A stretch of 20,000 bases of DNA from Atractiella rhizophila (Eukaryota), in NCBI GenBank assembly GCA_021432655.1, contig MU271207.1, positions 141,277-161,276 on the forward strand. Reading direction: 5' to 3'. The position numbers were made by a program, and so were the translations under genes. Below the pieces are notes generated by a model. It made no database searches. It was given only the letters and a program-made list of their open reading frames with translations, and was not told the origin of the DNA. Within the stretch, counting starts at the first letter, position 1; each line of letters begins with the position of its first letter. This document shows, one piece after another, positions 928 to 17,219 of this stretch.

Positions 928-2370
928 CTACATCCCAGAACTGGGACCGAACCACTCTTCCACGAGTTTCCCAACGTGCTCCTTCCATTTCGTCATTCTC
1001 TCGAGATCCAAATGGAACGCTATGGCACCAAAGAGAAAGACAGCAACGAAGAGGACGAGGAAGTAAAGTGACCGCAGTGTTGCAACACGACGGTTTTTCG
1101 ATGCCAAATTCGACGAGATAAGCGGATCGGTCTCTACTGCTTCAGACGAGCGAGCGACCTTCCCGCCTCGTTCGACGTCATTGCTTCGCGTCCTCCTTAA
1201 GCACCCGAATATCCCGCATGTCCTACCTTCCTTCGCTTGCTCACTCTCATCTTCTTCATCCGAAAATGTTGGCGGCTGATCCATGAACGGAGTATAAACC
1301 TTCGAATTTGGACGATGATATTCTTTAAGCGAAGGACGGCGAGTGGAGGTGCTGGTGTCAACGCCCTCGAAGGGACGGATCGTTTTCGAGCTCTCTCCGC
1401 GAGTTAAAGGCAACGGGGTGACAGATCGCAATGGAGAGGAAGGGGGAAGGGGTTTAGGGGTAACAATCGGGACGGATTTTATGTTCGCGGCCGATGACGA
1501 TGCAACACGTTTTGAAGGAGGAACGATAGGCATGGCCGACGAAGAGGGATATTTGAAGTCAGGAACGGACGAGGGTTTAGCCAGTTTCGCTTGTTCAGCC
1601 GCAAGAGATGGGATCCTCGATTTCCCTTTATTCTCCTTCCCACCGCCTTCTCTCTTCGACCGTCTCTCCTCTTCTCTTCGAGCGCCCAATTCAATGCTCT
1701 TCTGCAAGTCCCTCTTGTGTCTTCGAAACTCATTCATCTCTCTTCTTTGACCCTGACTGTGCAACGATGTCTCGCTTCCACGCTGAGCCAGCGAACGAAC
1801 ATCCTTGTCTCTCCTCCAGAAGCTCTCTTCGAACTCAGCTGAAGGAGGAGGGGAGCGCAAGATGACGCTTTCCCCATCCTCGTCATCGTTCGACTTCCAT
1901 CGGCTTTGACGGAATGGTCCCGAGGTCGAAGCGTACGAGTACGCCTGAGGCTCTGTGCCTCTTCTGGAAGTGAAAGGGCTCGTCTCCCTGGACCGCAACG
2001 GGCTGGTTTCTCTACGTGCCACAGAGCCATAGTAACCGGAATCTACGCGGTCTTTATCGGATGCCTGTAGACGGAAGGAAGAGTGTTCCCCATCCGCAGA
2101 CACTGCCGAGTCGATGGAGTCTATACGCCGGATTTTTCGGTAGTCGGGAGACGTAGAGTGAATGCTTTCCGTCGGCGTGTGAATAAAACGAGTACGAGAG
2201 ATGGAGGAGGAGGAGGGAATGCGAATGGCGGTTATATTGCGAGCAGCTATCGCAGCAGCGCGGCTCGGAGTGGTTGGTCCATCTGGTTGACGTATAACGG
2301 GAGATGAAGGTGCCATGCTATCTTGCAGACTGGTAGAAACCATCTGTGAGTATGCTGAAGCCGAAGGCAT
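928..2370 (-). CDS. Hypothetical ~480-aa Ser/Pro/Arg-rich, largely disordered protein with a short charged helix and one C-terminal transmembrane segment (tail-anchored-like)
   Basis: Long uninterrupted ORF. The ORF-track start at 2397 is TTG; the first ATG is at 2370 (MPSASAYSQ). It has a charged helical stretch (REMNEFRRHKRDLQKSIELGARREEERRSKRE), a hydrophobic segment (LYFLVLFVAVFLFGAIAFHL, ~1010-1075) and a ~25-aa tail. No family recognised; upstream exons cannot be excluded. Confidence 0.75.
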   Translation of the reverse strand: MPSASAYSQMVSTSLQDSMAPSSPVIRQPDGPTTPSRAAAIAARNITAIRIPSSSSISRTRFIHTPTESIHSTSPDYRKIRRIDSIDSAVSADGEHSSFRLQASDKDRVDSGYYGSVARRETSPLRSRETSPFTSRRGTEPQAYSYASTSGPFRQSRWKSNDDEDGESVILRSPPPSAEFEESFWRRDKDVRSLAQRGSETSLHSQGQRREMNEFRRHKRDLQKSIELGARREEERRSKREGGGKENKGKSRIPSLAAEQAKLAKPSSVPDFKYPSSSAMPIVPPSKRVASSSAANIKSVPIVTPKPLPPSSPLRSVTPLPLTRGESSKTIRPFEGVDTSTSTRRPSLKEYHRPNSKVYTPFMDQPPTFSDEEDESEQAKEGRTCGIFGCLRRTRSNDVERGGKVARSSEAVETDPLISSNLASKNRRVATLRSLYFLVLFVAVFLFGAIAFHLDLERMTKWKEHVGKLVEEWFGPSSGM

Positions 2371-4469
2371 GATTTCGATATCATTATGACAATCCAACGA
2401 ACTTTTACATGCAGCCTGGGGGAGCAGCTCTCCTGGCAGGATAACACCAATTTCCTCTCATGTCTTCTTTGATACTGACGGTCAACGAGCGGAGAGATAG
2501 AACATTCAGTCACTATTCGTTGAAAGGAAGTAGAACCAAGACAGGGTACTTTCAATTGAGCCATTTGTAATGACATCGAAAGCCAACATGCATTCACCTT
2601 CATAACACAAAGTGAAAAGTCAAAGTCTTAGGGCTTCCTCCGAATGGTAACACTTTACTTGACCAAAGTTCAGTGCTGTGGAAGCGCGTCGCAGCCCTCA
2701 TTACAAATCAAATTTCGCTGAGGCTCCTTTACACCACTAGCAGGCAAAGCGGTGAGAACTATTATGCAGTACCCTCAGTCTCTCGACATGTAGATGAATA
2801 GTGTCAAAGCAAAAGCGTTTAAACTGGAACGAAACAGCAAGTAACTTTGTGGACACCTCCTTCGCCACCTCATGGTGACCAAGTCCTCATTCCCAACGCG
2901 AGCTAGTACAAAAGAGGACTCCACTCCCTCTCCCCGAGCACAACAAAGACAACTCACCAGCAAAGTTCCTGTTAAGGCACCAAAAGCCAAGATCCAATCT
3001 CCAAACAAACTGTCAATGTCACGCTAACGCCACGACTGCGATCCAGTCGAGCCAATCCCAAACGTGAGCCGAGGCAGCTACTTTAGCTTTGAAGATGAGT
3101 TGGCTTGCGACAGCGGGGCGATAATTGAGAGGATCGTCGTTTTTGAGTGCTTTGCGGTCGAGCTTCGGCTTTTTGACGTCAGGTTTGCTCAGGTTGGGGT
3201 TGGGGAAGGTTTGTGGGACAGAACGACGATTTCACCGGGTGACACGGGGAGACAGTCGCAGCTTGGACGCAGTCTAGCTGGTCGAGAAGGATACTGTAAA
3301 GATAATAGACGTGCTGAAGGGCGACGAGTAAATGAAGAGGAAAGTAGGTGTCAAGCACAGAAATTGAGTGAAAATAAAGATTGCAAACTGCATTATCTCA
3401 ATTGTGAGTTCCGTGTTTAGCGTATTACGACAACAGCTCCACAAAGCAGCACTTGGTTAGGAGCACTGAGCTAGCGTTCATTGACTTCATTGCTTAGTCG
3501 CACATAGATATTTGAATATCGCCGTTGCTAAGCCGTTTTCTATGAGCAGCAGCATCTCAATGTTGTTGGTAAACATGAGTACCATTCTGTTTAGTTGCAT
3601 TGTGGTCGCTAAAACGATGTGTTTAAAGCCTATAAATGAGTTTATTGCTCATTTTATTCGTGTCTCTAAACACCATTGGAGCTATCTTTGCCAGAAATAA
3701 ACACTTTGCTGTCTCTTTCCTGTGGTGTTTCTGCATGAAAGCAGTTCATCTCTGTAATTTCCTACGACAGTCCCCCTTCTTCTCGGACTTGACATTGTCC
3801 ATCGCCTGTCAGATCAGATTGCTGAGATAACTGGATTGTGGTCTGATTCTTGCCCACTTATGTGGGAGAAAGGACAACGTTCTGACACAAATTTCAGACA
3901 ATAAACGCATTCATTAGACAGCAAAGCCATGGGTGTTCAATAACGTTCAGTTGTTGTGCTAGCTAGATAAACTTGCTTTTTTGCTTGTTTATGCTCTGTC
4001 CCAAAAGTGTTACATGTGAAACCTCCATTGCGCCGTATTAACATGCAACTTAGAAACAAAGGAATGTTTCATATTGCCCACGGAGCCACATAGTTGGTCA
4101 GGGATTGTTCATGCTGTCATCATGTCAACTCTTGCTACAGGTTGCCAATGTGGTGATTCTCTAATCATTGCACAAACTGTGTTTGCTTCATTAGGTTGAC
4201 AGTCTGTCACTTCCAGAGACTCTTTGAAAACTTGTTAGATGACAAACTGGCAAATGGTTAGGTGTTTACAGCTCGTCACAGATTAATTACTAGTCCTGAA
4301 TAGGTATTAAACCCACTCAATAAGCCCTCCCGACGAATACACCTTGAGGTTTCTGGAAAGGACCAAAGACTGACCAGTCTTGTAACACGGTCATCCCCAA
4401 TGACCACCCCATTTCGTGGTCCCCACAACCTCCAATAGATTCCTCTCTCCAACAATACCGACTGCCTGC

Positions 4470-7400
4470 ATGTCCAACTTTCAGCGGGGCATCTTTCGAG
4501 CCCCTGGTGATATCAAGAAACCAAATGAGAGAGGTCTACGAATCCTCGCCATTGACAACGGTGGAATTCGAGGTTTGTCGACATTGTACATGCTCGAAGC
4601 TATCATGTGCCAGGTGGCTGCCATCTTGGATGTACCCGACTATCGTGAGCTCCGGCCCTGTGAGTTCTTCGATCTTATCTGCGGAGCGTCAACAGGTGGT
4701 TGGATTGCCATCATGCTTGGAAGACTTGGGATGACCGTTCGTCAATGTATTGATGCATACCTGAACATCGTGGCGAAGGTCTTTTCGGAGGAGGCTCGTA
4801 TCACTCCAACAGCAAACAGTGACCAACCCTACTACCCCTTTTCGGCACAAAGGCTGGAGGATGCCTTCATCTCTCTCATAGAACAGCACGCTACAAGCCC
4901 CGTTGGATGTGGACGTGCCGTACCGATGAAAGACCCTGATCAACTCTTTCAAGAGAGGTGTAGGACCTTTGTTGTAGCCACCTACGAAGCCGATACCCGT
5001 GTATCGTGCGAAATGCGGACTTACGACTCACTTTCGAAGGCTGCAACTTGCGCAGTTTGGCAGGCAGCCAGAGCGACGGCTGCTGCCCCAAACTTCTTCC
5101 CAGCTCTCACCGTCGATAACACTACATACGTCGCGATCGGACGGAATAATCCTTCAACCATGGCAATTACAGAATCTAAGCGTATTTGGGGGCAACGAAG
5201 CGAGATCGCCTGTTTTGTTTCTTTAGGCACTGGAGTTACGCCTGCCCTGAGGATTGATGGCATTCTGCACAATCTGACTCAAGTGATGAAAGACATCGTG
5301 GAAGATTGCTCTAGAGTCTCGAATGAGGTTAAGATAAACCTGCAAGAACAAGGACTGGGATTTTGTTTCTATCGATTTTGCGTCGAGTCTTTAGGGGGTA
5401 TCGGCTGGGAGGATTGGAGGAGAAAGGACGATGTGGTTGGTCAGACAAAAGCTTTCATGGAAAGTATGAGTCACGAAGTTTTAGCTTTGACCAAATCTCT
5501 CACTCAGCGTAAGCATATCGACCTTCTTCCATGCTACAAGTCATGATATTTCTTTGAGCAGCTCACCACCTGCGGATAGCCATCTTTAGGAAGCTACCAC
5601 TCCCTCCCCCACCATTGTGCTTCGGAAGAGAGAAAGAAATCAGCGCGATAAAAAATGCTGCTCTGGCTGGCCAACACGTAGCGATTGTAGGTGGTGCAGG
5701 AAATGGCAAATCTACGGTGGCACTGGCAACACTGCACACTGAGGAAATCAAGTCAGCTTTCACCCAGCAGCTTGAAGATCGTTTAGAGGAGCGGCGCTTT
5801 TGGGTTCGTTGCGACGCCTTCAATACCTTTTCTAGTCTATGGAACCATCTATGTCACAGTATCTTTTGCTTAGTTCCACTACCAGGAACCACCGAGCTTG
5901 ACATGGTTACCGGCTATTTTCAAAGTCAGAAGTGCCTTCTAGTGCTGGACAACCTTGAGACTCCAGCAGGTTCCGATCCGACAAACTTCCAACCATTTCT
6001 TCAGAGCCTGCTCTTCAACAATAAAGCTCGGTCCGTCCTGGTTGTCGCTCATCGTGGAGATCGAGCAGAACGGATAGATTTGCAAGGGGCGCAATTCACT
6101 GCAGTAACCATTTGCGGCCTGGAGCAGGACATTGCTTGTAAGCTTTTTCGACATCATTTTCAAAACCATCGCGATTCGCCAGATCTCGAAACAACAATCA
6201 ATGAAATCAATTCATGCTTAGATCATCATCCCCTTTCGATCCGTCTCTTTGCCTTGCGAGCGCGACATGACAGAGATCGATCCCTCAAGCAATTGCGCGA
6301 ACTCTGGGAAGCAATGAAGACGGATATTCTTTGGAAGGATGAAAGGGACGGGACACCCGCTCTTGCGTCGTCGATTTCCTTTTCTCTTCGTTCTCCGGTA
6401 GTCACCGCATCCCCTCAAGCATTATCTGCACTTGCAATTTTGTCTTGGACCCCAGAAGGGCTCGTCCACGATGATTTGGAGGCCATATTATCGGTTGAGG
6501 ACAGTTACAAAGCTGTCGATTCTATCCTCGCGATCGGGCTCGCCGAGAGGATTGGTGGGGTTGTAACTGGTCGACGACGTTTACGTATACTCGCTCCAAT
6601 TCGTGAACACCTAAACAGCCTAGTGTCGCTGTCACGACCACCGTTCTTAGAATCGGTTTTATTGTCTCTTGAGCCACTTGTCGCTCATCAAATACAAACA
6701 GCGAAGCAGATGATTGAACAATTTGAAGTGAGGGAGCGACATGCGGCATTCATGTGCTTCCAGGAAGAATACCCCAACTTGGAGCACCTCCTCATGACAA
6801 CTATGTCCCAACCCCCTCTCCAACGGCAAGTTTTTGCCTTCCTCAAAGATGCCGCGCATTTCTTGTACTCTCACTTATTCCCTTCCGTTCGACTGGCTTC
6901 AGCTGTGGTGGATCTCAGCCGCACGCTCGTAGAGGAGTCGACGGTCGTAGCGACATTCCTGTTCTATCTCGCCGCCACAAAGCATGTAAAGGGCAACACT
7001 CTGGATGCAATCCAACATTATCTGGAGGCAAAAGAGATCTTTCTCGAGCAGGGGAGGCGCAAGAACGTCGCCGCTTGCCTCGAAGGAGTTGCAAATCTCT
7101 ACTTGATCAGCGGGAGACATGACTCTGCTCTGCAGGCGTTCCGCGAGGCAAAAGAGATTAACATTGAGGAGGGGTGTCGCAAGGGAGTCGCCGGCTGCCT
7201 CGCCCGAATGGGGACCATCGATTCGTTACGCGGCAGGCATGACTCTGCTCTGAAACTATTCCAGGAGGCGATGGAGATTCACCTGGAGGAGGGAGATCGC
7301 GGTGGAGTCGGAAATATCCTTCATGACATTGGAGGAGTCGAGTGTCTATGCGGGAGGCCCAATTCCGCTCTGCAGGCTTTCCAGGAGTCGAAGAAGATTG

Positions 7401-9049
7401 CTGAAGAGGAGAGGAACCCCGGATCAGTCGCTGCTTGTCTCAAGAGCATCGGCGATGTAGAGTATCGATACTGGAGGACCGACTCTGCTTTGAAGGCATT
7501 CCAGGAAGCGAAAGAAATTTTCGTTCAGATGAATATGCCTTTGGTATTGGCCGCTTGCCTCGAAAGCATCGGCCGTGTCGACTTGCGGTGTAAGAGGTAC
7601 GATTCTGCTCTGGAGGGCTTTCACAAGGCGAAAGAGCTCAACCTCGAGTTCGGATATGCTAGTGGAGTGGCTGGTTGCCTCAATAATATCGGCTCAGTCG
7701 ACTCCGATTGTGGGAGGCTGGATTCTGCTCTGAAGGCTTTTCAGGAGGCGAAGGAGATTCACCTCAGGCTCGGCGACCGCCTCGGTGTCGCTGCTTCCCT
7801 CAACAACATTGGAGTCGTCGATCTCAGATGCAGTAGGAGCGATTCTGCGCTTAGGGCATTCAAAGAGGCGAAGGAAATTTGTCTCGAGGTGAATCATCGC
7901 CTAGCCCTGGCTGACTGCAACACACGCATCGGACAGGCCCTCAGCCAATGTGGAAGATACGATTCTGCTCTGCAGGCCTTCCAGGAGGCGAAAGAGATTT
8001 ATCTCGCGGTAGATCATCGACTGAAATTGGCCAACTGCACCCGATGTATTGGAGAAGTTCATTTACGAAGTGGAAGGTACGATTCTTCTCTGGAGGCATT
8101 CCAGGAGTCGAAGGAGATTTACTTGGAACTGGACTGCGGTTTCGGAGTCAAAGAGTGCCTCGAATTGATCGCAGCCGTCCACATTGAATGTGGGAGGGAT
8201 GATTCTGCATGGAAGCTTGTCGACGAGCCGGCGCCAAAGGGGAGACTCGGGCAGCTTAGATTTCCAAACCAGATTGGTAGTGGAGAAGGAGAACGGCGTG
8301 GAGAGACAGATCAACAATCTAGACCAACTTGTCTAGCCAATGCCCAATCCTCAACGCAGGATGAACTACCAATTCTTCCTCCCTCACAACGCATCGTCAG
8401 CAAGGAACCATCTGCTCACAAAATCCAATCTCCACCCCATTTACTTCATCCAGACCCATCCGCCGCCATCTCAGCTCACCTCTCCAAAGTCGCGACCAAG
8501 CTCGCGACGCTCTCGACGGCCACTCTTCCACCTACCTTAACACTGCATCTCACGTCTCCGATACTGACATTCCATCCGTGCAACATACCTCATCGCGAGC
8601 TCAGGCAACAGCTGGAGTCGCTGCTATTGGAGTTGGATGGGATTGAGAGTGAGGGAGACGAAAATGTTAGGAGAGAGAGGAAGAGAATGGTGAGGGAGGC
8701 AGAAGAATTACTGGAAAAGTTGGAGCGGGGAGTCAAGGAGGAGTGGGAAATGCGATGTAGGAAAATTGGTATGTTCTTATTTGTGTCTTTACGATACAGC
8801 TCCTACTAACTGTAGATGTTGGACTCCAACTTCCAGAAGCGGCCGTTTCTGCCTCCGACGCCGAGCCAACTCCTTCACTAAGGCATTCAAAAATCACTCC
8901 TTCTAAAGACCCATCAGTTCAAAGGAAGTGAGTGTTCAGCGTTGTAGCTCTCTTGAGTACAGAATAAAGCCGATCTCGTGTTCGTTAGGGCTAGGAATCT
9001 TATCAGCTCTTTCCTCCCAAAATTCAGGCGCACGCGGCACTCGAAATGA
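4470..9049 (+). CDS. Fungal NLR-like receptor: patatin-like (PNPLA) domain + NB-ARC/STAND ATPase + 40-aa TPR-like repeats + C-terminal BAG-like domain; predicted exons 4470-5508, 5562-8768, 8816-8927, 8989-9049 (~1472 aa)
   Basis: Patatin motifs LRILAIDNGGIRG (D at 4554), FDLICGASTGG (GxSxG 4683-4697) and ARATAAAPNFF. Removing intron 5509-5561 (GTAAGC...GCAG, 53 nt) joins the two long ORFs in frame (..LTQ-P-HHLRIAIFRKLPLPPPPLCFGREKEI). Walker A GGAGNGKST (5690-5716), Walker B LLVLDNLE (~5936-5959), DHHPLSI (GxP-like). Intron 8769-8815 is GTATGT...TACTAAC...TAG. The last intron, 8928-8988 (GTGAGT...TTAG), is less certain; without it the stop is at 8931. Confidence 0.88.
5509..5561 (+). other. 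Spliceosomal intron joining the patatin and NB-ARC exons
   Basis: GTAAGC donor, pyrimidine tract and CAG acceptor, 53 nt, phase 1. It contains the TGA that ends the 376-aa ORF, and splicing restores the frame into the 1064-aa ORF. Confidence 0.88.
7001..8210 (+). repeat. Intragenic tandem array of ten 120-nt (40-aa) TPR-like repeats plus the start of an eleventh
   Basis: A GA(C/T)TCTGCTCTG-like motif (DSAL) recurs at 7121, 7241, 7361, 7481, 7601, 7721, 7841, 7961, 8081 and 8201, an exact 120-nt period with no indels. Consensus DSALxAFQEAKEIxLExGxRxGVAxCLxxIGxVxxxxGRx. Confidence 0.93.
8459..8726 (+). other. BAG-like three-helix domain (Hsp70 co-chaperone family) within the NLR reading frame
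   Basis: HRELRQQLESLLLELDGIESEGDENVRRERKRMVREAEELLEKLE matches the BAG helix 2-3 pattern (LLxLDxIxxxGxxxxRxxRKxxVxxxxxxLxxL). The preceding LPPTLTL...LTFHPCNIP resembles the insert I recall from basidiomycete BAG proteins. Recognised by eye, not by HMM. Confidence 0.8.
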
Positions 9050-9921
9050 ATCGATAGTTTCTTGGCTTGACAGTCATGCTAGTCATGACAGTGCATATTG
9101 ATTATAGGCTATCCTTCACATCCATGATACCAGTGACTACTGTGAGCTAATCCACAGTGAAGATGAGATGGTGGAAATGCTAGGGAATCAGGACGAAAAC
9201 AGACCTAACCCTATGTACATGTTGTAAGGTGGGAAGAGACCAAAATGAAAAACCAATGATTGTGCAATTGTGCCGAAGAGTGCAAAGAAAGGGAGAATGG
9301 TACAGTCTGTAGGCAATGAAAGGAGTGGATGTGAAGGGAGCTAAAGGGAACAGAGGTAACAGTACCATTCTCTGATAGCAGAGAGTTTCTCAAATGTGAT
9401 TTGATGTGCTTTCACGGGCATTTTACTCAAGGCTTAGCATATTTTACAGAAGCCCAGCCTCAAGGACTGAAAAGAAAAGAAGGAGACTCAATACTCAGTC
9501 CCCGACTCACTGATCTTGAAGGAATCACTGCAACTTGGCAATCCTGAGTTAATTCTTGCCCTATGCAGTCAGGATTTAAGCTTCTGGACGATTATTCACC
9601 TTGAAGTCTTTTTCTCTTGATCAAGCACTCTTGCATAAAAGTCACACCTGCATATTGGATGGGAATGCTCATGTGGGATGAGACAGACAGGGAAAAGGCT
9701 ATAAATTTGTTCATACTTTTCAGTAGCAAAGCGTAACCGAGGGATGTGAGCCATAAGGAATTGTTTCCTTGTTGGTTTCGTTGTTGTATCCAATAATACT
9801 AAAATTCTAAGATTTGCAGCGTGGTGGCCTCCACCTTGACTCAGAACTCTGCTGAATCCGGATTCTGAACCAAAGCGGCTCAAGCCGAATTTGGTCGGGC
9901 AGTTGTAAATCACATGATTGA

Positions 9922-10153: not shown

Positions 10154-13100
10154 TGTCTCCCTTATCCGGTAATGAAAGCTCTCTTTTTAATATCGTCCTC
10201 TTTCCCTCTAATGCTTTCATCTTCCAGCTACCACTTGAATCTGATTCTCTCTGCCCTTGCCTCAGATGCCCCTCAACCGTGAGCAAGATCGTCTGCGTGA
10301 TGCTGCCAGGCGGCAAGACCCTGAACTTCAAGCTCGAGTTCAGTAACAGTGAAGAGCGAGATGGAATACTCCTTATAGAATGCTCAGCAGCGTGAACACA
10401 TGGCTCGGCAACAACAACTACAACCTGCACCTCAGAGAGAGAATGCTGTAGAAAGAGCTGCACATTGGTGACGATTTTTGAATAGTGATGAAGGGAGATG
10501 GACGACCTCTTGGAGGAATGCTAAGTGTAGATTCTGTGGTGCTCTGCTGTTGGAATTGGAAGATACAGGTTTCTGTTGTCAAAATGGACACGACATTCTT
10601 CAGCCCCTGCCCCCTCTTCCTCCTCCTCTGCAAGATCTCGCTACATCCAACCCTCACGAAGCATCAGCTATGTCTTGACGTCTCAACTGAGCCTTCTGTT
10701 TAAGTTCTCTTGGTATTTCTCCTGCTGAGCCTGGATTCGAGTACTTTGAAGACCTTGACGCATAGACATTTGCGTTGAATGACCGCACATATCACCGCAT
10801 GTTTCCAACTGGGAGAGCCGATCATCCTATGCATTAGCTTTTGCACGATGCTGAAGGAAGTGACAGAAATGCAGAGCAAAACAATCTATCATTAGCCTTA
10901 GTGGGTTCGTTAAACTTTCCAAAATATATGATCGAACGTTGTCCTTCTAAGTCTGACTCTCAAACTCTGTAGAATCTCTCTGACGTACTTTCTCTTTTGA
11001 ATCCTCTTTTCCACCATTATCATTCCTTCGCTACCTTCGAACCAGACCAAGAACAAGCTGTTATGGAGCTTCGCGACCCAACAGCTGATGAGGAAATAGC
11101 AGCAATCTTTCACTCAGGAAACCGCACCATCAGGCATCCAAGAAGTGTTTATGTTGGACATCATGCAGCTGGCATACCTACACATGTCAGTACTCTTTCC
11201 CAACTTTACGAATCCTTCCAATACCCCATCTTCTTCCCACATGGAACACCTGGCTGGGTGTCGACTCTCCTCTTCTTCAACAGAACCAACACTTTACTTA
11301 ACATGTTTGGTATAAGAACTGCCTTCTTACTGAGCCACACTTTTTGGATTTTGGAAGGCTTGGATGTGAATACATATGTGATATGGTATCCCAAATGGAG
11401 GATGAGTGTTTGGAGTATGTTGGGAGTAATCACAAGGCTCAGTTAGAGGATTGGGAAGCTGCTATTGTGGTGGGAGAACATGGAGAAGATGGTGACTTTG
11501 AGTTTACCTCTTTGCCTTCAAGTGTAACAGGATCAAGAAAGTGGGCTATGGAAAATGTTGCGGATGCTTTAGCGATAGCAAAAGTCTTGGGAAGACTTAA
11601 TTTCTTTGTTACGGCAACTGCAAATCCAAATTGGCCCAAAATGAAGTCTCAACTACGTCCGGGTCAATCTGCTACAGAAGGCGCTTGGATAACTACTCAC
11701 ATCTTCAAAGCAAGATTGACGGTTTTGCTAGAGGAAATCAAGAAACAGTTTGGAGGCTTACTTTACAAGATCCATGTTATTGAGTTTCAGAAGTAGGGTC
11801 TTCCTCATGCTCACATAGTGATCAAGGTATGGTTGTTCTATTCATTTTTGTTTCCAACATCTGAATAGTATCACAGTGCAAACATAGACCTGCACTGGAA
11901 GATATAGACAATGTCATTTCAGCAGAACTACCTCAAGAAAATGGACCATTGCAAGAAGCAGTATTGATACATGACTAGTGTCATCTTGAAAGGTCATACT
12001 CACGATGTCAAAACAAGCATGGTGTATGCTGCTGGGGGTTTCCACATCCTGTATGACCGAATACCACTGTGATGAAAGTGGAAGAGTCCTTTCTCAAAAA
12101 CGCTTAGAAGAGGACGCCTGGATAGCTACTTATCCGCCCTCTCTAATTCTTAAGTGATGGTCACATCAATATTGGATGCCGTATTCATGGCAAATGTCTT
12201 CCTCTATCTGTACAAGTACCTGTACAAAGGAGTCGATCAAGCAAGGTATCAAGTCCAAGCTGTTGGAGAAGAGTTGAATCCTGTTAAGGACTACATCCAA
12301 GGTCAATATCTCTGCCTGTGAAGTGTGCTGGCGTATTCAGGGAAATCAACTGTCCTCAAAGGACCTATCCATCTTCTAACTTTCTATTTACCTACCAGGC
12401 CACAATTTCTCCCGATTCACCTGCCAGTCTAACACACTGTCATCCGGTTTCAACACTCCTTCAATATTTCCACCGTCCTAATGATGCACTGTTTGATAAC
12501 GTCACTACTCTGAACTCTTCTCTCACTGGATTCTAGAGTCTTATCCACAAGATGGAGTTGTCAGGGCTGGACGTTATGAAGAGATTGCGTTTAGTGGTAT
12601 GCCTCCTCACAAATTAGTCAAGAGGAGAGAAAGGGGCATGAAGATATCAAGACTTCAGACGATTTGTCCTGGACAAGGGGAGCCCTTTATCTTCGGATGT
12701 TGCTGTTTTCTTGACCAGCACGCAATTTTGTTGAGCTCCGGACAGTTGATGGTACTGTACAGGAAACGTTTCTGGATGCAGCTTGAGTTCTAGGCCTCTT
12801 TACAGATGAGACAGAAGGCGAATTCCCGCTACAAGAAGCTGTAGAAAACTTTGTCGACGGTCCCCAGCTTCGCCTTCTCTTTGTGCAGCTCATCATCGAA
12901 GACTCTCCTGCTCTTCTTCTGTGGGAACGATTCAAATTGGCCATCTCAGCAGACTACCTCAGATGATACAATCAGAACACCTTACAGCATTTTCCAAAGC
13001 CATTGGAGATATAGATTGTATATTGGGAGAGAATGGGTGATCCTGTGAAGATTACGGTCTGGAGGTTCCTAAGGAGTGTACTGTTGAGATTGTGCAGGAG

Positions 13101-16063: not shown

Positions 16064-17219
16064 ATGTCCAACTCCAACCTTAACTCTCTGATTCAGTCAG
16101 TTCCCAAGCTTACAGAAACCAATTATTACGACTGGAAATTCGCTGTCTCGTTGGTGTTGAAGAGAGGTGGCCGCTAGGAAGAAGTGAGTGGAGTGGTGGA
16201 GGAGCCTTCAGCGGAGGGGACGAAGAAACTGAAGAACTGGAAAGATGCGAATGAGGTTGGGCTGACGATTGTCAGATTAAGTGTGGATCCATCGCAATTC
16301 ATCTATATCCGAGATTCAGCTACCGGGGCGGTGGCATGGAAGGCTTTGAAAGACAAGTATGAGAAGAACAGCCGCGCAAACCGTATCACGCTTAAACACC
16401 GTTTCTATAACGCGAAACACGACCCCTCGAAGCCAATTGAGTCCTACGTTCAAGAAGTTTCTGCTAGTGCGTCGAATCTCAAATCGATCGGGCTCCAGAT
16501 CTCCGATACCGATATTACGGATGTCCTCATCTTCAACCTCACGGAGGACTGGGGGAAACTTGTGTCAGGTTTGCATCTTACGCAAATCGGCGCCCGTTCG
16601 CCGGATTGCATCTCTTATCGCCCATTTGCGTTCCCTGCGAATCGGCGCCCGTTCGCCACTGCGTCTCCCGTCGCCCATTTGCACCTACATCACCACTTAG
16701 CCCAATTGTGCCTAACCTCCTCTTATTAACTCCGCGTAATCCCACTGTCACTACCCCTTTTGGTTCTCTTACATGTTTCATCTGCTCTCCTCCACGCTCT
16801 GTGGCAGTGTTATTCCGCTTGTATATATAGATCAGAGAGTAGTGGAGGTGGCCTTAGAGTATTCTCTTAGGTTTATCTCCACTACAGACGCATCGCCTAT
16901 CGGCGACCGCACATAGTGTCAGCCCTAACAACTTGCTGGAACATTAATAGCGACTAAGGAAGAGTTGTCCATTCAAGATGTTATTGGTGCTCTCAGGGAT
17001 GAGGAAGGGAGAAGAGGAGGTTCAGGGGTGTCAAGAGGAGGAACTGGGGAGGCACTGCTCACGAAGGCGAGAAGGTTCAGAAGGTGTGATCACCCAAATT
17101 CCAATCGACAAATCAATTGCTGGGTCTGCGGAGACTCCGGACATTTGGCACGAGATTGTTCCGAGAAGGCACTAGCGAAGAAGGATAGGTCGGAAGCGCA
17201 CATTACTGAGGGATTTTAA
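16064..17219 (+). pseudogene. gag: Copia-type gag (~260 codons after removing the insert), inactivated by TAG at 16175-16177 and a solo-LTR insertion
   Basis: PKLTETNYYDWKF N-terminal motif, AWKALKDKYE (Retrotran_gag_2/UBN2-like) and zinc knuckle CWVCGDSGHLARDC (17118-17159). Excising 16563-16935 restores DWGKL-AGTLIATKEELSIQDVIGALRDEE. Confidence 0.92.
16563..16930. mobile_element. Solo LTR (368 bp) of a different retrotransposon family nested in gag
   Basis: TGTCAGG...CCTAACA imperfect terminal inverted repeat with TG...CA ends; 5-bp TSD ACTTG (16558-16562 and 16931-16935); TATATATA box at ~16822; removal restores the gag frame. Confidence 0.9.

What the first reader, a model, noticed from the sequence alone, without database searches (positions are those of the whole stretch)
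4554..5153. Patatin domain looks catalytically dead: DG of the catalytic Asp motif is deleted and the oxyanion loop is altered
Seen: the nucleophile elbow GASTG is intact, but the Asp motif region reads TTYV-AIGRNNP (5127-5153), where relatives typically read (F/Y)VDG(G/A)(L/I)GxNNP. This looks like a clean in-frame 2-codon loss. The glycine loop is DNGGIRG instead of DGGG(I/V)RG. Established: patatins use a Ser-Asp dyad, and lipase activity is required for PLP-1 killing in Neurospora. Inference: the rest of the 4.4-kb frame is intact, so this may be a sensor-only NLR or pseudo-lipase that binds lipids or signals through a helper, possibly linked to gain of the BAG domain.
Basis: partly seen in the sequence, partly recalled or inferred. 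Interest (0 to 1): 0.75.

Follow-up and report, generated by a model that had tools for sequence, protein, structure and literature searches.

The report
Conserved Asp-less patatin NLR family
A fungal immune-receptor-like gene carries a lipase-type head domain that has lost one of its two catalytic residues, and the same loss is shared by a whole expanded, expressed and conserved gene family in this root endophyte rather than being a fresh defect in one gene.

Summary
The gene (ATG 4470, four exons, 1465 aa; patatin-NACHT-TPR-BAG) reads DNGGIRG, GASTG and YVAIGRNNP. No Asp stands at the dyad position, where 226 of 240 relatives have D.

It is not a private lesion or an assembly error:
- Spliced transcript contigs match the exon without a mismatch.
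- 12 of 12 Atractiella rhizophila paralogues that cover the motif lack the Asp.
- These paralogues form one clade (UFBoot 96 / SH-aLRT 98), so the loss is a single old event.
- A paralogue outside that clade (P0123) keeps DGG.

The domain is still constrained:
- The AF2 model is a confident patatin fold (pLDDT 89.7).
- 45 of 52 family-conserved positions are kept. The 7 lost include the Gly-loop residues and the Asp.
- A rough pN/pS is about 0.25.
- Patatin identity among paralogues equals that of the nucleotide-binding region.

Ala222 occupies the Asp site. Asp216 sits in a hairpin turn and also occurs in the DGG-keeping paralogue, so it is not a replacement.

Best reading: a conserved non-catalytic pseudo-lipase head on an NLR. 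How it signals is only inferred. Catalytic-residue loss recurs in this subfamily: 41 of 240 relatives lack Ser or Asp. The link to the BAG domain is not supported. This is a new variant of a known kind, of moderate interest.

The parts
4272..4469 (+). 5' leader on the transcript contig, with a 12-codon upstream ORF at 4400-4438 in another frame
   Evidence: X1 record 1 begins at 4272. The only ATGs upstream of or at the start are 4400 and 4470.
4470..5508 (+). Exon 1: patatin-like domain, residues 1-346 plus the first base of codon 347
   Evidence: Pfam PF01734 E 2.3e-15. AF2 pLDDT 89.7, pTM 0.90. Foldseek best match CapV 8zr9_A, E 5.9e-15, TM 0.73.
4554..4574 (+). Gly-rich loop DNGGIRG. The first Gly is replaced by Asn30; Arg34 and Gly35 are kept in this gene.
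   Evidence: Position 30 is G in 233/240 relatives and N in 10/10 clade members. R34 is R or K in 230/240 relatives but R in only 2/10 clade members.
4683..4697 (+). Nucleophile elbow GASTG with Ser74
   Evidence: Ser is kept in 11/11 clade members that cover it.
5115..5120 (+). Asp216-Asn217, the turn of the beta hairpin before the dyad strand
   Evidence: DSSP of the model gives strands 213-215 and 218-221. The same Asp (D175) is present in P0123 together with catalytic D181.
5127..5153 (+). YVAIGRNNP: the Asp-motif region without Asp and two residues short. Ala222 (5133-5135) sits at the Asp position.
5509..5561 (+). Intron 1 (53 nt, GT..AG, phase 1)
   Evidence: X1 contig joins 5508 to 5562. 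Splice-site letters.
5562..8767 (+). Exon 2: NACHT-type NTPase (about 5678-6166, P-loop GGAGNGKST at 5690-5716), TPR array (about 6953-8143), and a low-complexity linker followed by the BAG domain (8594-8725)
   Evidence: Pfam: NACHT 28.2 bits (cut-off 26.7), TPR_12 E 7.3e-50, BAG E 4.4e-09 and 1.6e-10 on the tail alone.
8768..8835 (+). Intron 2 (68 nt; the cut may lie one base to the right)
   Evidence: X1 record 3 joint.
8836..8927 (+). Exon 3
   Evidence: X1 record 3. The spliced product ends exactly as the annotated protein P0006 does.
8928..8988 (+). Intron 3 (61 nt, GT..AG)
8989..9049 (+). Exon 4 coding part, with the stop codon at 9047-9049. Total product is 1465 aa.

Best explanation
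The gene encodes an expressed, full-length NLR-type receptor of Atractiella rhizophila with the architecture patatin-like head, NACHT NTPase, TPR array and BAG tail. Its head domain is a conserved pseudo-lipase. It keeps the patatin fold and the Ser elbow but has no dyad Asp, and in most paralogues it has also lost the Arg-Gly of the glycine loop. The loss happened once, on the stem of a lineage-specific expansion of at least 14 gene models, and the domain has been kept under purifying selection since. Shown here: absence of the Asp, its clade-wide distribution, the fold, expression, and sequence constraint. Inferred: that canonical Ser-Asp acyl hydrolysis is lost or crippled, and that the head now acts without catalysis once the NACHT-TPR part oligomerises. 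It could act as a lipid- or ligand-binding surface, or as an interaction surface that passes the signal to another protein.
For: Asp column: D in 226/240 relatives and in 0/12 clade members (A 8, L 3, T 1). The clade of 10 Asp-less rows is monophyletic at UFBoot 96 / SH-aLRT 98, and all 12 Atractiella rows group at 100/98. P0123 from the same species keeps DSGGLRG, GTSIG and YVDGG. AF2 model: pLDDT 89.7, pTM 0.90. Patatin fold: CapV TM 0.73, patatin 1oxw TM 0.71. Ala222 takes the place of P0123 Asp181, the fifth residue after the hairpin turn in both models. Of 52 positions conserved at 85% or more in the 240 relatives, 45 are kept by the clade. The 7 lost are G30, R34, G35, A205, A206, D222 and T254, so the losses include the glycine-loop residues and the Asp while most conserved positions are kept. 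18 clade-specific near-invariant residues, such as N30 10/10 and W78 12/12, argue for new constraint rather than drift. Expression: spliced contigs of X1 cover 4272-9132 with three GT..AG joints. A ~93% identical DNA copy differs by in-frame indels only (+3, -9, +9), and by 12 synonymous against 11 non-synonymous changes among the 23 listed exon-1 differences, giving pN/pS of about 0.25. Patatin identity to paralogues (43-55%) equals that of the nucleotide-binding region (45-50%). Background: patatin and cPLA2 enzymes use a Ser/Asp dyad (PMC7603386, passage read). PLP-1 cell death depends on patatin activity and the P-loop (PMC12881547, passage read, citing Heller et al.).
Against: No activity was measured. 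Ser74 and its elbow are kept in 11/11 members, which a fully non-catalytic domain would not strictly need; the elbow may be kept for structural reasons. This particular gene also keeps Arg34-Gly35, the ATAAAP motif and SLGTG, so it is the least degenerate member of its clade. The pN/pS comes from 23 differences in two sub-intervals whose limits I estimated from the table, and 151 further differences were not shown. Most paralogue gene models are truncated or broken, so part of the family may be decaying. No downstream partner was identified.
Confidence: 0.65

Rival explanations
1. The domain is still an enzyme. Ser74 works with a different general base, or with a substrate-assisted or acyl-transfer mechanism, in a remodelled pocket.
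For: Ser74 and the GxSxGG elbow are kept in 11/11 clade members. The NNP motif and most of the conserved positions are kept, 45 of 52. This gene keeps Arg34-Gly35. Clade-specific invariants near the elbow (N30, W78) could belong to a rebuilt site.
Against: No acidic residue or His is among the 18 clade-specific invariants adjacent in sequence to the three motifs; E173 and E181 lie in the strand region 165-183 and H301 in strand 300-304, and their distance to Ser74 is unknown. Most paralogues have also lost the loop Arg and Gly: R in 2/10, G in 2/10. Asp216 is in a hairpin turn and predates the loss. 37/240 relatives have lost the Ser itself, which shows that this subfamily tolerates loss of catalysis.
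Confidence: 0.2
2. The head domain is a decaying remnant in a birth-and-death NLR family. The missing Asp reflects relaxed selection, and the domain has no function.
For: Many paralogue models are short or broken: P0126 lacks the elbow, P0003 has a further deletion, and P0001, P0002 and P0121 end early. The gene sits among transposon remains, a Helitron-like N domain at 11302-11793 and a copia gag at 16178-16726. The public annotation starts the protein at Met231 and so omits most of the domain.
Against: The exon is open over 346 codons, transcribed and spliced to the NTPase exon. The rough pN/pS is about 0.25, and the close copy has only in-frame indels. The domain has the same identity among paralogues as the nucleotide-binding region. 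45/52 conserved positions are kept, and terminal branches are short: 0.14 for the window against a median of 0.48.
Confidence: 0.08
3. The dead patatin head is a bait (integrated decoy) that mimics an active patatin lipase targeted by an antagonist's effector, and binding of that effector triggers the receptor.
For: There is only indirect support: an inactive copy of an enzyme domain on an NLR, a lineage-specific expansion, and an intact stand-alone paralogue (P0123) that could be the guarded enzyme.
Against: In fungal NLRs the N-terminal position is that of the effector or signalling domain, and the repeats are taken as the sensing part (PMC4986451, passages read). No effector or interaction data exist.
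Confidence: 0.06
4. Sequencing or assembly error removed six bases.
For: None found.
Against: RNA contigs of X1 match with 0 differences over 4272-5508. X1, X2 and X3 show no indel at 5127-5153. 12 separate paralogues share the state.
Confidence: 0.01

Closest known systems
PLP-1 (Neurospora crassa), VIC-2 (Cryphonectria parasitica) and HET-Z1 (Podospora anserina): patatin-NB-ARC-TPR NLRs of allorecognition
   Same: N-terminal patatin-like domain, central P-loop NTPase and C-terminal TPR array. C. parasitica vic2 (P0095) is a detectable relative of the head domain: E 2.4e-23, 28% identity.
   Different: Those proteins read DGGGIRG ... FVDAALG with an intact dyad, and PLP-1 killing depends on patatin activity (PMC12881547, passage read). 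Here the Asp is absent, Pfam labels the NTPase NACHT rather than NB-ARC, there is a BAG tail, and none of the 12 neighbouring open frames scanned matched a SNARE family.
CapV / CapE, the patatin phospholipase effectors of bacterial CBASS
   Same: They are the closest solved folds: 8zr9_A E 5.9e-15 with TM 0.73, and 9ioq TM 0.64. Both are immune effectors that work as oligomers or filaments, going by the PDB entry titles.
   Different: CapV has YVDGG where the window has YVAIG. One deposited CapV-type chain (9kh7) reads A at that position where its near-identical relative 9wn1 reads D; I take this to be an engineered change, which is my inference. CapV is activated by cyclic nucleotides, not by a fused NTPase.
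Patatin / PNPLA / iPLA2 enzymes
   Same: Same alpha/beta/alpha fold, Gly-rich loop and GxSxG elbow.
   Different: The defining Ser/Asp dyad (PMC7603386, passage read) is incomplete here.
Other dyad-deficient patatin domains among the fungal relatives found here
   Same: 37 of 240 relatives lack the Ser (33 read Gly, e.g. GTGTGG in about 750-aa Orbiliales proteins), 14 of 240 lack the Asp, and 10 lack both. Loss of catalytic residues therefore recurs in this subfamily.
   Different: Most of those have lost the Ser, or the Asp by substitution. The Atractiella clade keeps the Ser, lacks the Asp and has a loop two residues shorter. I found no paper describing any of these (passages of PMC9815663 and PMC4986451).

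Membership tests
Patatin-like phospholipase domain (Pfam PF01734 / PNPLA) | Profile match and alpha/beta/alpha patatin fold | tested here: met
   57.7 bits against a cut-off of 27.7. AF2 pLDDT 89.7. Foldseek CapV TM 0.73 and patatin TM 0.71.
Patatin-like phospholipase domain (Pfam PF01734 / PNPLA) | Nucleophile elbow G-x-S-x-G | tested here: met
   GASTG, residues 72-76.
Patatin-like phospholipase domain (Pfam PF01734 / PNPLA) | Gly-rich loop G-G-G-x-[RK]-G | tested here: inconclusive
   The window reads N-G-G-I-R-G. The first Gly is changed (G in 233/240 relatives), and Arg and the last Gly are kept. The dyad-intact paralogue P0123 has S at the same place.
Patatin-like phospholipase domain (Pfam PF01734 / PNPLA) | Catalytic Asp in the D-G-[GA] motif | tested here: not met
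   Ala222 is at the Asp column, or a gap at D-G in the other alignment. D stands there in 226/240 relatives. The domain is therefore a homologue by descent, not a member of the enzyme class as defined.
Patatin-like phospholipase domain (Pfam PF01734 / PNPLA) | Acyl-hydrolase activity | not testable with these tools
   Needs an enzyme assay.
Fungal NLR (STAND NTPase with an N-terminal effector domain and C-terminal repeats) | Central NACHT/NB-ARC NTPase with a P-loop | tested here: met
   NACHT 28.2 bits against a cut-off of 26.7 (a weak match). GGAGNGKST at 5690-5716 and LLVLDN.
Fungal NLR (STAND NTPase with an N-terminal effector domain and C-terminal repeats) | C-terminal superstructure-forming repeats | tested here: met
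   TPR_12 E 7.3e-50 in 5 stretches, TPR_10 E 2.8e-26.
PLP-1 / VIC-2 type patatin NLR allorecognition system | Catalytically competent patatin head required for cell death | tested here: not met
   The dyad Asp is absent. The requirement comes from PMC12881547 (passage read).
PLP-1 / VIC-2 type patatin NLR allorecognition system | Linked polymorphic SEC-9 SNARE partner | tested here: inconclusive
   None of the 12 neighbouring open frames scanned matched a SNARE family. The genome is not held, and exon-broken genes could be missed.
BAG domain (PF02179) | Profile match | tested here: met
   41.8 bits against a cut-off of 23.4, but covering only profile positions 33-76 of 78.
BAG domain (PF02179) | Binding to the Hsp70 nucleotide-binding domain | not testable with these tools
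   Not tested.

The most novel reading that the evidence does not exclude
The Asp-less patatin heads are not effectors but adaptors. When the NLR oligomerises, its clustered dead patatin domains recruit or nucleate the free, dyad-intact patatin paralogue (P0123 type) through patatin-patatin contacts like those in CapV/CapE filaments. That would give a sensor-executor relay built from one enzyme fold. More broadly, pseudo-patatin heads (41 of 240 relatives lack Ser or Asp) would be a common, so far undescribed signalling class in fungal NLRs.
Probability: 0.1. Interest if true: 0.8.

Novelty: new variant of a known kind. Interest (0 to 1): 0.45.

Why it matters
The one functionally studied patatin NLR, PLP-1, is reported to kill through its lipase activity. 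This family comprises at least 14 gene models in one species, whereas Dyrka et al. 2014 (PMC4986451, passage read) report a mean of 1.7 patatin NLR domains per species. It has done without the dyad Asp for a long time, yet keeps the fold, the Ser elbow and expression. That makes it a natural test of whether a patatin head can signal without hydrolysis. Together with the 41 of 240 relatives lacking Ser or Asp, it suggests that annotating every fungal patatin NLR as a phospholipase effector is too simple. It also corrects the public gene model, which omits most of the domain.

Tried and rejected
- Whole-genome search for paralogues: no genome is held for this window.
- Complex prediction of the window's head domain with P0123: no verdict (score 0.02, controls not run). 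This counts neither for nor against binding.
- Origin of the BAG tail: a search among proteins of 586-1868 aa found only the gene's own product, and none was found among proteins of 103-329 aa. Both searches are word-limited, so this is weak evidence.
- Earlier notes of this scan: none for this place or for these words.
- Asp216 as a replacement for the catalytic Asp: rejected on topology (hairpin turn) and because it coexists with the catalytic Asp in P0123. No coordinates were available for a distance.
- Soil metatranscriptome runs X4-X8 hold small shares of the stretch. X4 gave three short identical contigs in exon 2. I draw no conclusion on habitat or expression from these.
- Upstream open frame 931-2457 (- strand): no Pfam family, and atlas hits under 0.8 with a poorly folded model. 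Not pursued.
- My first translation was out of frame by one base. One Pfam call failed on a frame slip and was corrected.
Full report
**Gene structure and source**

The finding lies in exon 1 of a + strand gene. The start codon is ATG 4470; my first translation was one base out of frame. A stop-to-stop frame runs 4404-5546 and a second runs 5558-8809.

Contigs of public run X1 join 5508 to 5562, 8767 to 8836 and 8927 to 8989. Each joint has GT..AG ends, and the contigs cover 4272-9132. They are therefore RNA-derived and define four exons.

The spliced product is 1465 aa with its stop at 9047-9049. The annotated protein P0006 ('TPR-like protein', Atractiella rhizophila, 1235 aa) is its exact C-terminal part. 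The public model starts at Met231 and so omits most of the patatin domain. The transcript contig, however, carries the whole open exon from 4272 on, preceded only by a 12-codon upstream ORF at 4400.

Pfam gives the following matches:
- Exon 1: Patatin, E 2.3e-15.
- Exon 2: a weak NACHT match (28.2 bits, cut-off 26.7), strong TPR_12 (E 7.3e-50) and a partial BAG domain (E 1.6e-10 on the tail alone).

The P-loop GGAGNGKST is intact.

**The observation**

I compared them with relatives from two searches:
- A word-seeded search for longer proteins: 273 hits at E <= 0.001, 120 listed.
- An exhaustive phmmer search of 1.84 billion representatives: 6000 hits at E <= 0.001, 150 listed.

From the 264 stored proteins with a phmmer match I aligned 256 domains. 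Proteins whose match did not span query residues 35-240 were left out, except Atractiella ones. P0006 was left out because it is the window's own product.

Among the 240 rows outside the Atractiella group, the dyad column is D in 226, the next two columns are G/A in 222 and 220, and the first loop Gly is G in 233. The window has Ala at the Asp column and two residues fewer before NNP.

The 72-row alignment A1 instead places the two-column gap exactly on D-G, so the gap position is ambiguous. The structural comparison favours 'Ala in place of Asp, then a shorter loop'. In the AF2 model of the window (pLDDT 89.7, pTM 0.90) the strands are 213-215 and 218-221, with D216-N217 as the turn. In the model of the paralogue P0123 (pLDDT 86.4) they are 172-174 and 177-181, with D175-N176 as the turn and the catalytic D181 closing the strand. 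Ala222 and D181 are both the fifth residue after the turn.

**The loss is not private to this gene**

The best hits are all from A. rhizophila (8 of the 10 proteins looked up carry that name). Fourteen gene models, including the window's, belong to the Asp-less group. Twelve of them have a residue at the Asp column and none is Asp: A 8, L 3, T 1. All 10 that cover the loop read N at position 30, and 11 of 11 keep Ser74.

An IQ-TREE analysis used 46 rows: the window, 11 Atractiella models and 34 outgroups that I picked from the top hits. The fragments P0122, P0125, P0126 and P0215 were left out. The tree gives:
- The 10 Asp-less rows form one clade at UFBoot 96 / SH-aLRT 98.
- All 12 Atractiella rows form one clade at 100/98.

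Two further Atractiella paralogues fall outside the Asp-less clade:
- P0123 reads DSGGLRG, GTSIG and YVDGG, with an intact dyad.
- P0131 reads YIAGVNGNVNP. That is Asp replaced by Ala with the loop at the usual canonical length.

The simplest history is one loss on the stem of the expansion, plus a separate substitution in P0131. It sits in the hairpin turn at the far end of the strand. I reject it as a replacement on topology, though without a measured distance because no coordinates were available.

**Constraint versus decay**

Several results argue for constraint:
- Of 52 positions conserved at 85% or more in the 240 relatives, the clade keeps 45.
- The seven it has lost are G30, R34, G35, A205, A206, D222 and T254. 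These include the glycine-loop residues and the Asp.
- Eighteen positions are near-invariant in the clade but rare elsewhere, for example N30 and W78.
- Identity of the window's patatin domain to paralogues (43-55%) is the same as for the nucleotide-binding region where both can be compared (45-50%, P0008 and P0005).
- The window's terminal branch is short: 0.14 against a median of 0.48.

Runs X2 and X3 also hold a copy about 93% identical (X3 record 15, 4582-5805, 80 other letters). Its only length differences are +3, -9 and +9 bases. Of the 23 exon-1 differences listed, 12 are synonymous and 11 are not. With Nei-Gojobori site counts for the two intervals these differences cover, pN/pS is about 0.25. 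This figure is rough: I estimated the interval limits, and 151 further differences were not shown.

Against constraint, many paralogue models are truncated or broken. The locus also lies among Helitron and copia remains.

The window's gene is the least degenerate member of its clade. It alone, with the fragment P0215, keeps Arg34, and it keeps Gly35, ATAAAP and SLGTG.

**What it most likely is**

The fold is that of patatin and CapV (Foldseek: 8zr9_A E 5.9e-15, TM 0.73; 1oxw TM 0.71). Patatin-family enzymes use a Ser/Asp dyad (PMC7603386, passage read). A review states that PLP-1 cell death depends on patatin activity and on the P-loop (PMC12881547, passage read).

Without the Asp, and in most paralogues without the loop Arg-Gly, I take canonical hydrolysis to be lost or crippled. 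I take the head to be a conserved pseudo-lipase that acts after NACHT-TPR oligomerisation, either by binding (lipid, ligand or protein) or as a scaffold.

This last step is inference. Confidence is 0.65 for the non-catalytic reading and lower for any particular mechanism.

Rival readings:
- Residual or altered Ser74 chemistry: 0.2.
- Decay: 0.08.
- A bait or decoy role: 0.06.
- Artefact: 0.01, refuted.

A test of head-to-P0123 binding gave no verdict and counts for nothing.

**Comparison and novelty**

The architecture is that of the PLP-1 / VIC-2 class of patatin NLRs (the C. parasitica vic2 product P0095 is a relative). It fails that class's functional criterion of an intact dyad. None of the 12 neighbouring open frames scanned matched a SNARE family.

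The BAG tail was found in no other protein (word-limited searches). Because the Asp loss is clade-wide, a causal link between the two is not supported.

Dyad loss is not unique to Atractiella. Among the 240 other relatives, 37 lack the Ser (33 read Gly), 14 lack the Asp and 10 lack both, so 41 lack at least one. Some of these may be gene-model errors.

I found no paper describing dyad-deficient patatin heads in fungal NLRs:
- Full-text searches.
- Passages read in PMC9815663, PMC4986451, PMC10197012 and PMC12881547.
- The search for 'Atractiella rhizophila' listed 12 of 15 papers, judged from the listing only; none of these titles or abstracts concerned this gene family.

Supplements were not consulted. 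The original Heller et al. paper was not read, only its summary in the review.

Dyrka et al. 2014 report a mean of 1.7 patatin NLR domains per species (PMC4986451, passage read), so 14 or more models in one genome is a marked expansion.

**Verdict**

This is a new variant of a known kind, of moderate interest.

Noticed in passing
window 4470-5159: The public gene model (P0006, 1235 aa) starts at Met231 and leaves out most of the patatin domain. A spliced transcript contig covers the whole open exon from 4272, so the protein is more likely 1465 aa.
   Followed up: yes
window 8594-8725: A partial BAG domain (Pfam 41.8 bits, profile positions 33-76 of 78) follows the TPR array after a low-complexity linker, on the same transcript contig. 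No other protein with this tail was found in two word-limited searches.
   Followed up: partly
relatives P0078, P0082, P0085, P0087-P0092, P0094 and others: 33 of 240 fungal relatives read Gly instead of the nucleophile Ser (GTGTGG). These include a group of about 750-aa proteins from nematode-trapping Orbiliales that keep the Asp-type motif as FLDEG. This is a second, independent kind of dyad-deficient patatin domain.
   Followed up: partly
window 4582-6868 (runs X2, X3): The DNA-like runs hold a second copy about 93% identical at higher contig depth than the identical copy. It differs by in-frame indels at 4818 (+3), 4899 (-9), 5038 (+9) and 6190 (-3), and reads Thr for Ala73. It could be a recent paralogue, an allele or another strain.
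   Followed up: partly
window 6138-6221: A low-depth X1 contig joint skips 84 bases with GT..AG ends inside the NTPase region, beside an unspliced contig. This may be a minor in-frame splice variant removing 28 residues. Support is one contig with a 30-base side.
   Followed up: no
window 11302-11793 and 16178-16726: A Helitron helicase-like N-terminal domain (E 5e-21) and a copia-type gag (E 6.1e-22) lie in short broken frames downstream. The NLR gene sits in transposon-rich DNA.
   Followed up: partly
window 931-2457, - strand: A 509-codon open frame upstream has no Pfam family and a poorly folded atlas model (pLDDT 0.46). It is probably a disordered or lineage-specific protein.
   Followed up: partly
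window 4400-4438: A 12-codon upstream ORF in the transcribed leader, in a different frame from the main ORF.
   Followed up: no
paralogues P0001, P0002, P0004, P0121, P0126, P0215, P0263: Most Asp-less paralogues carry a 70-245-aa Ser/Pro-rich N-terminal extension before the patatin domain, with a shared stretch. The window's gene lacks it: there is an in-frame stop before 4404, and the transcript contig shows no upstream joint.
   Followed up: no
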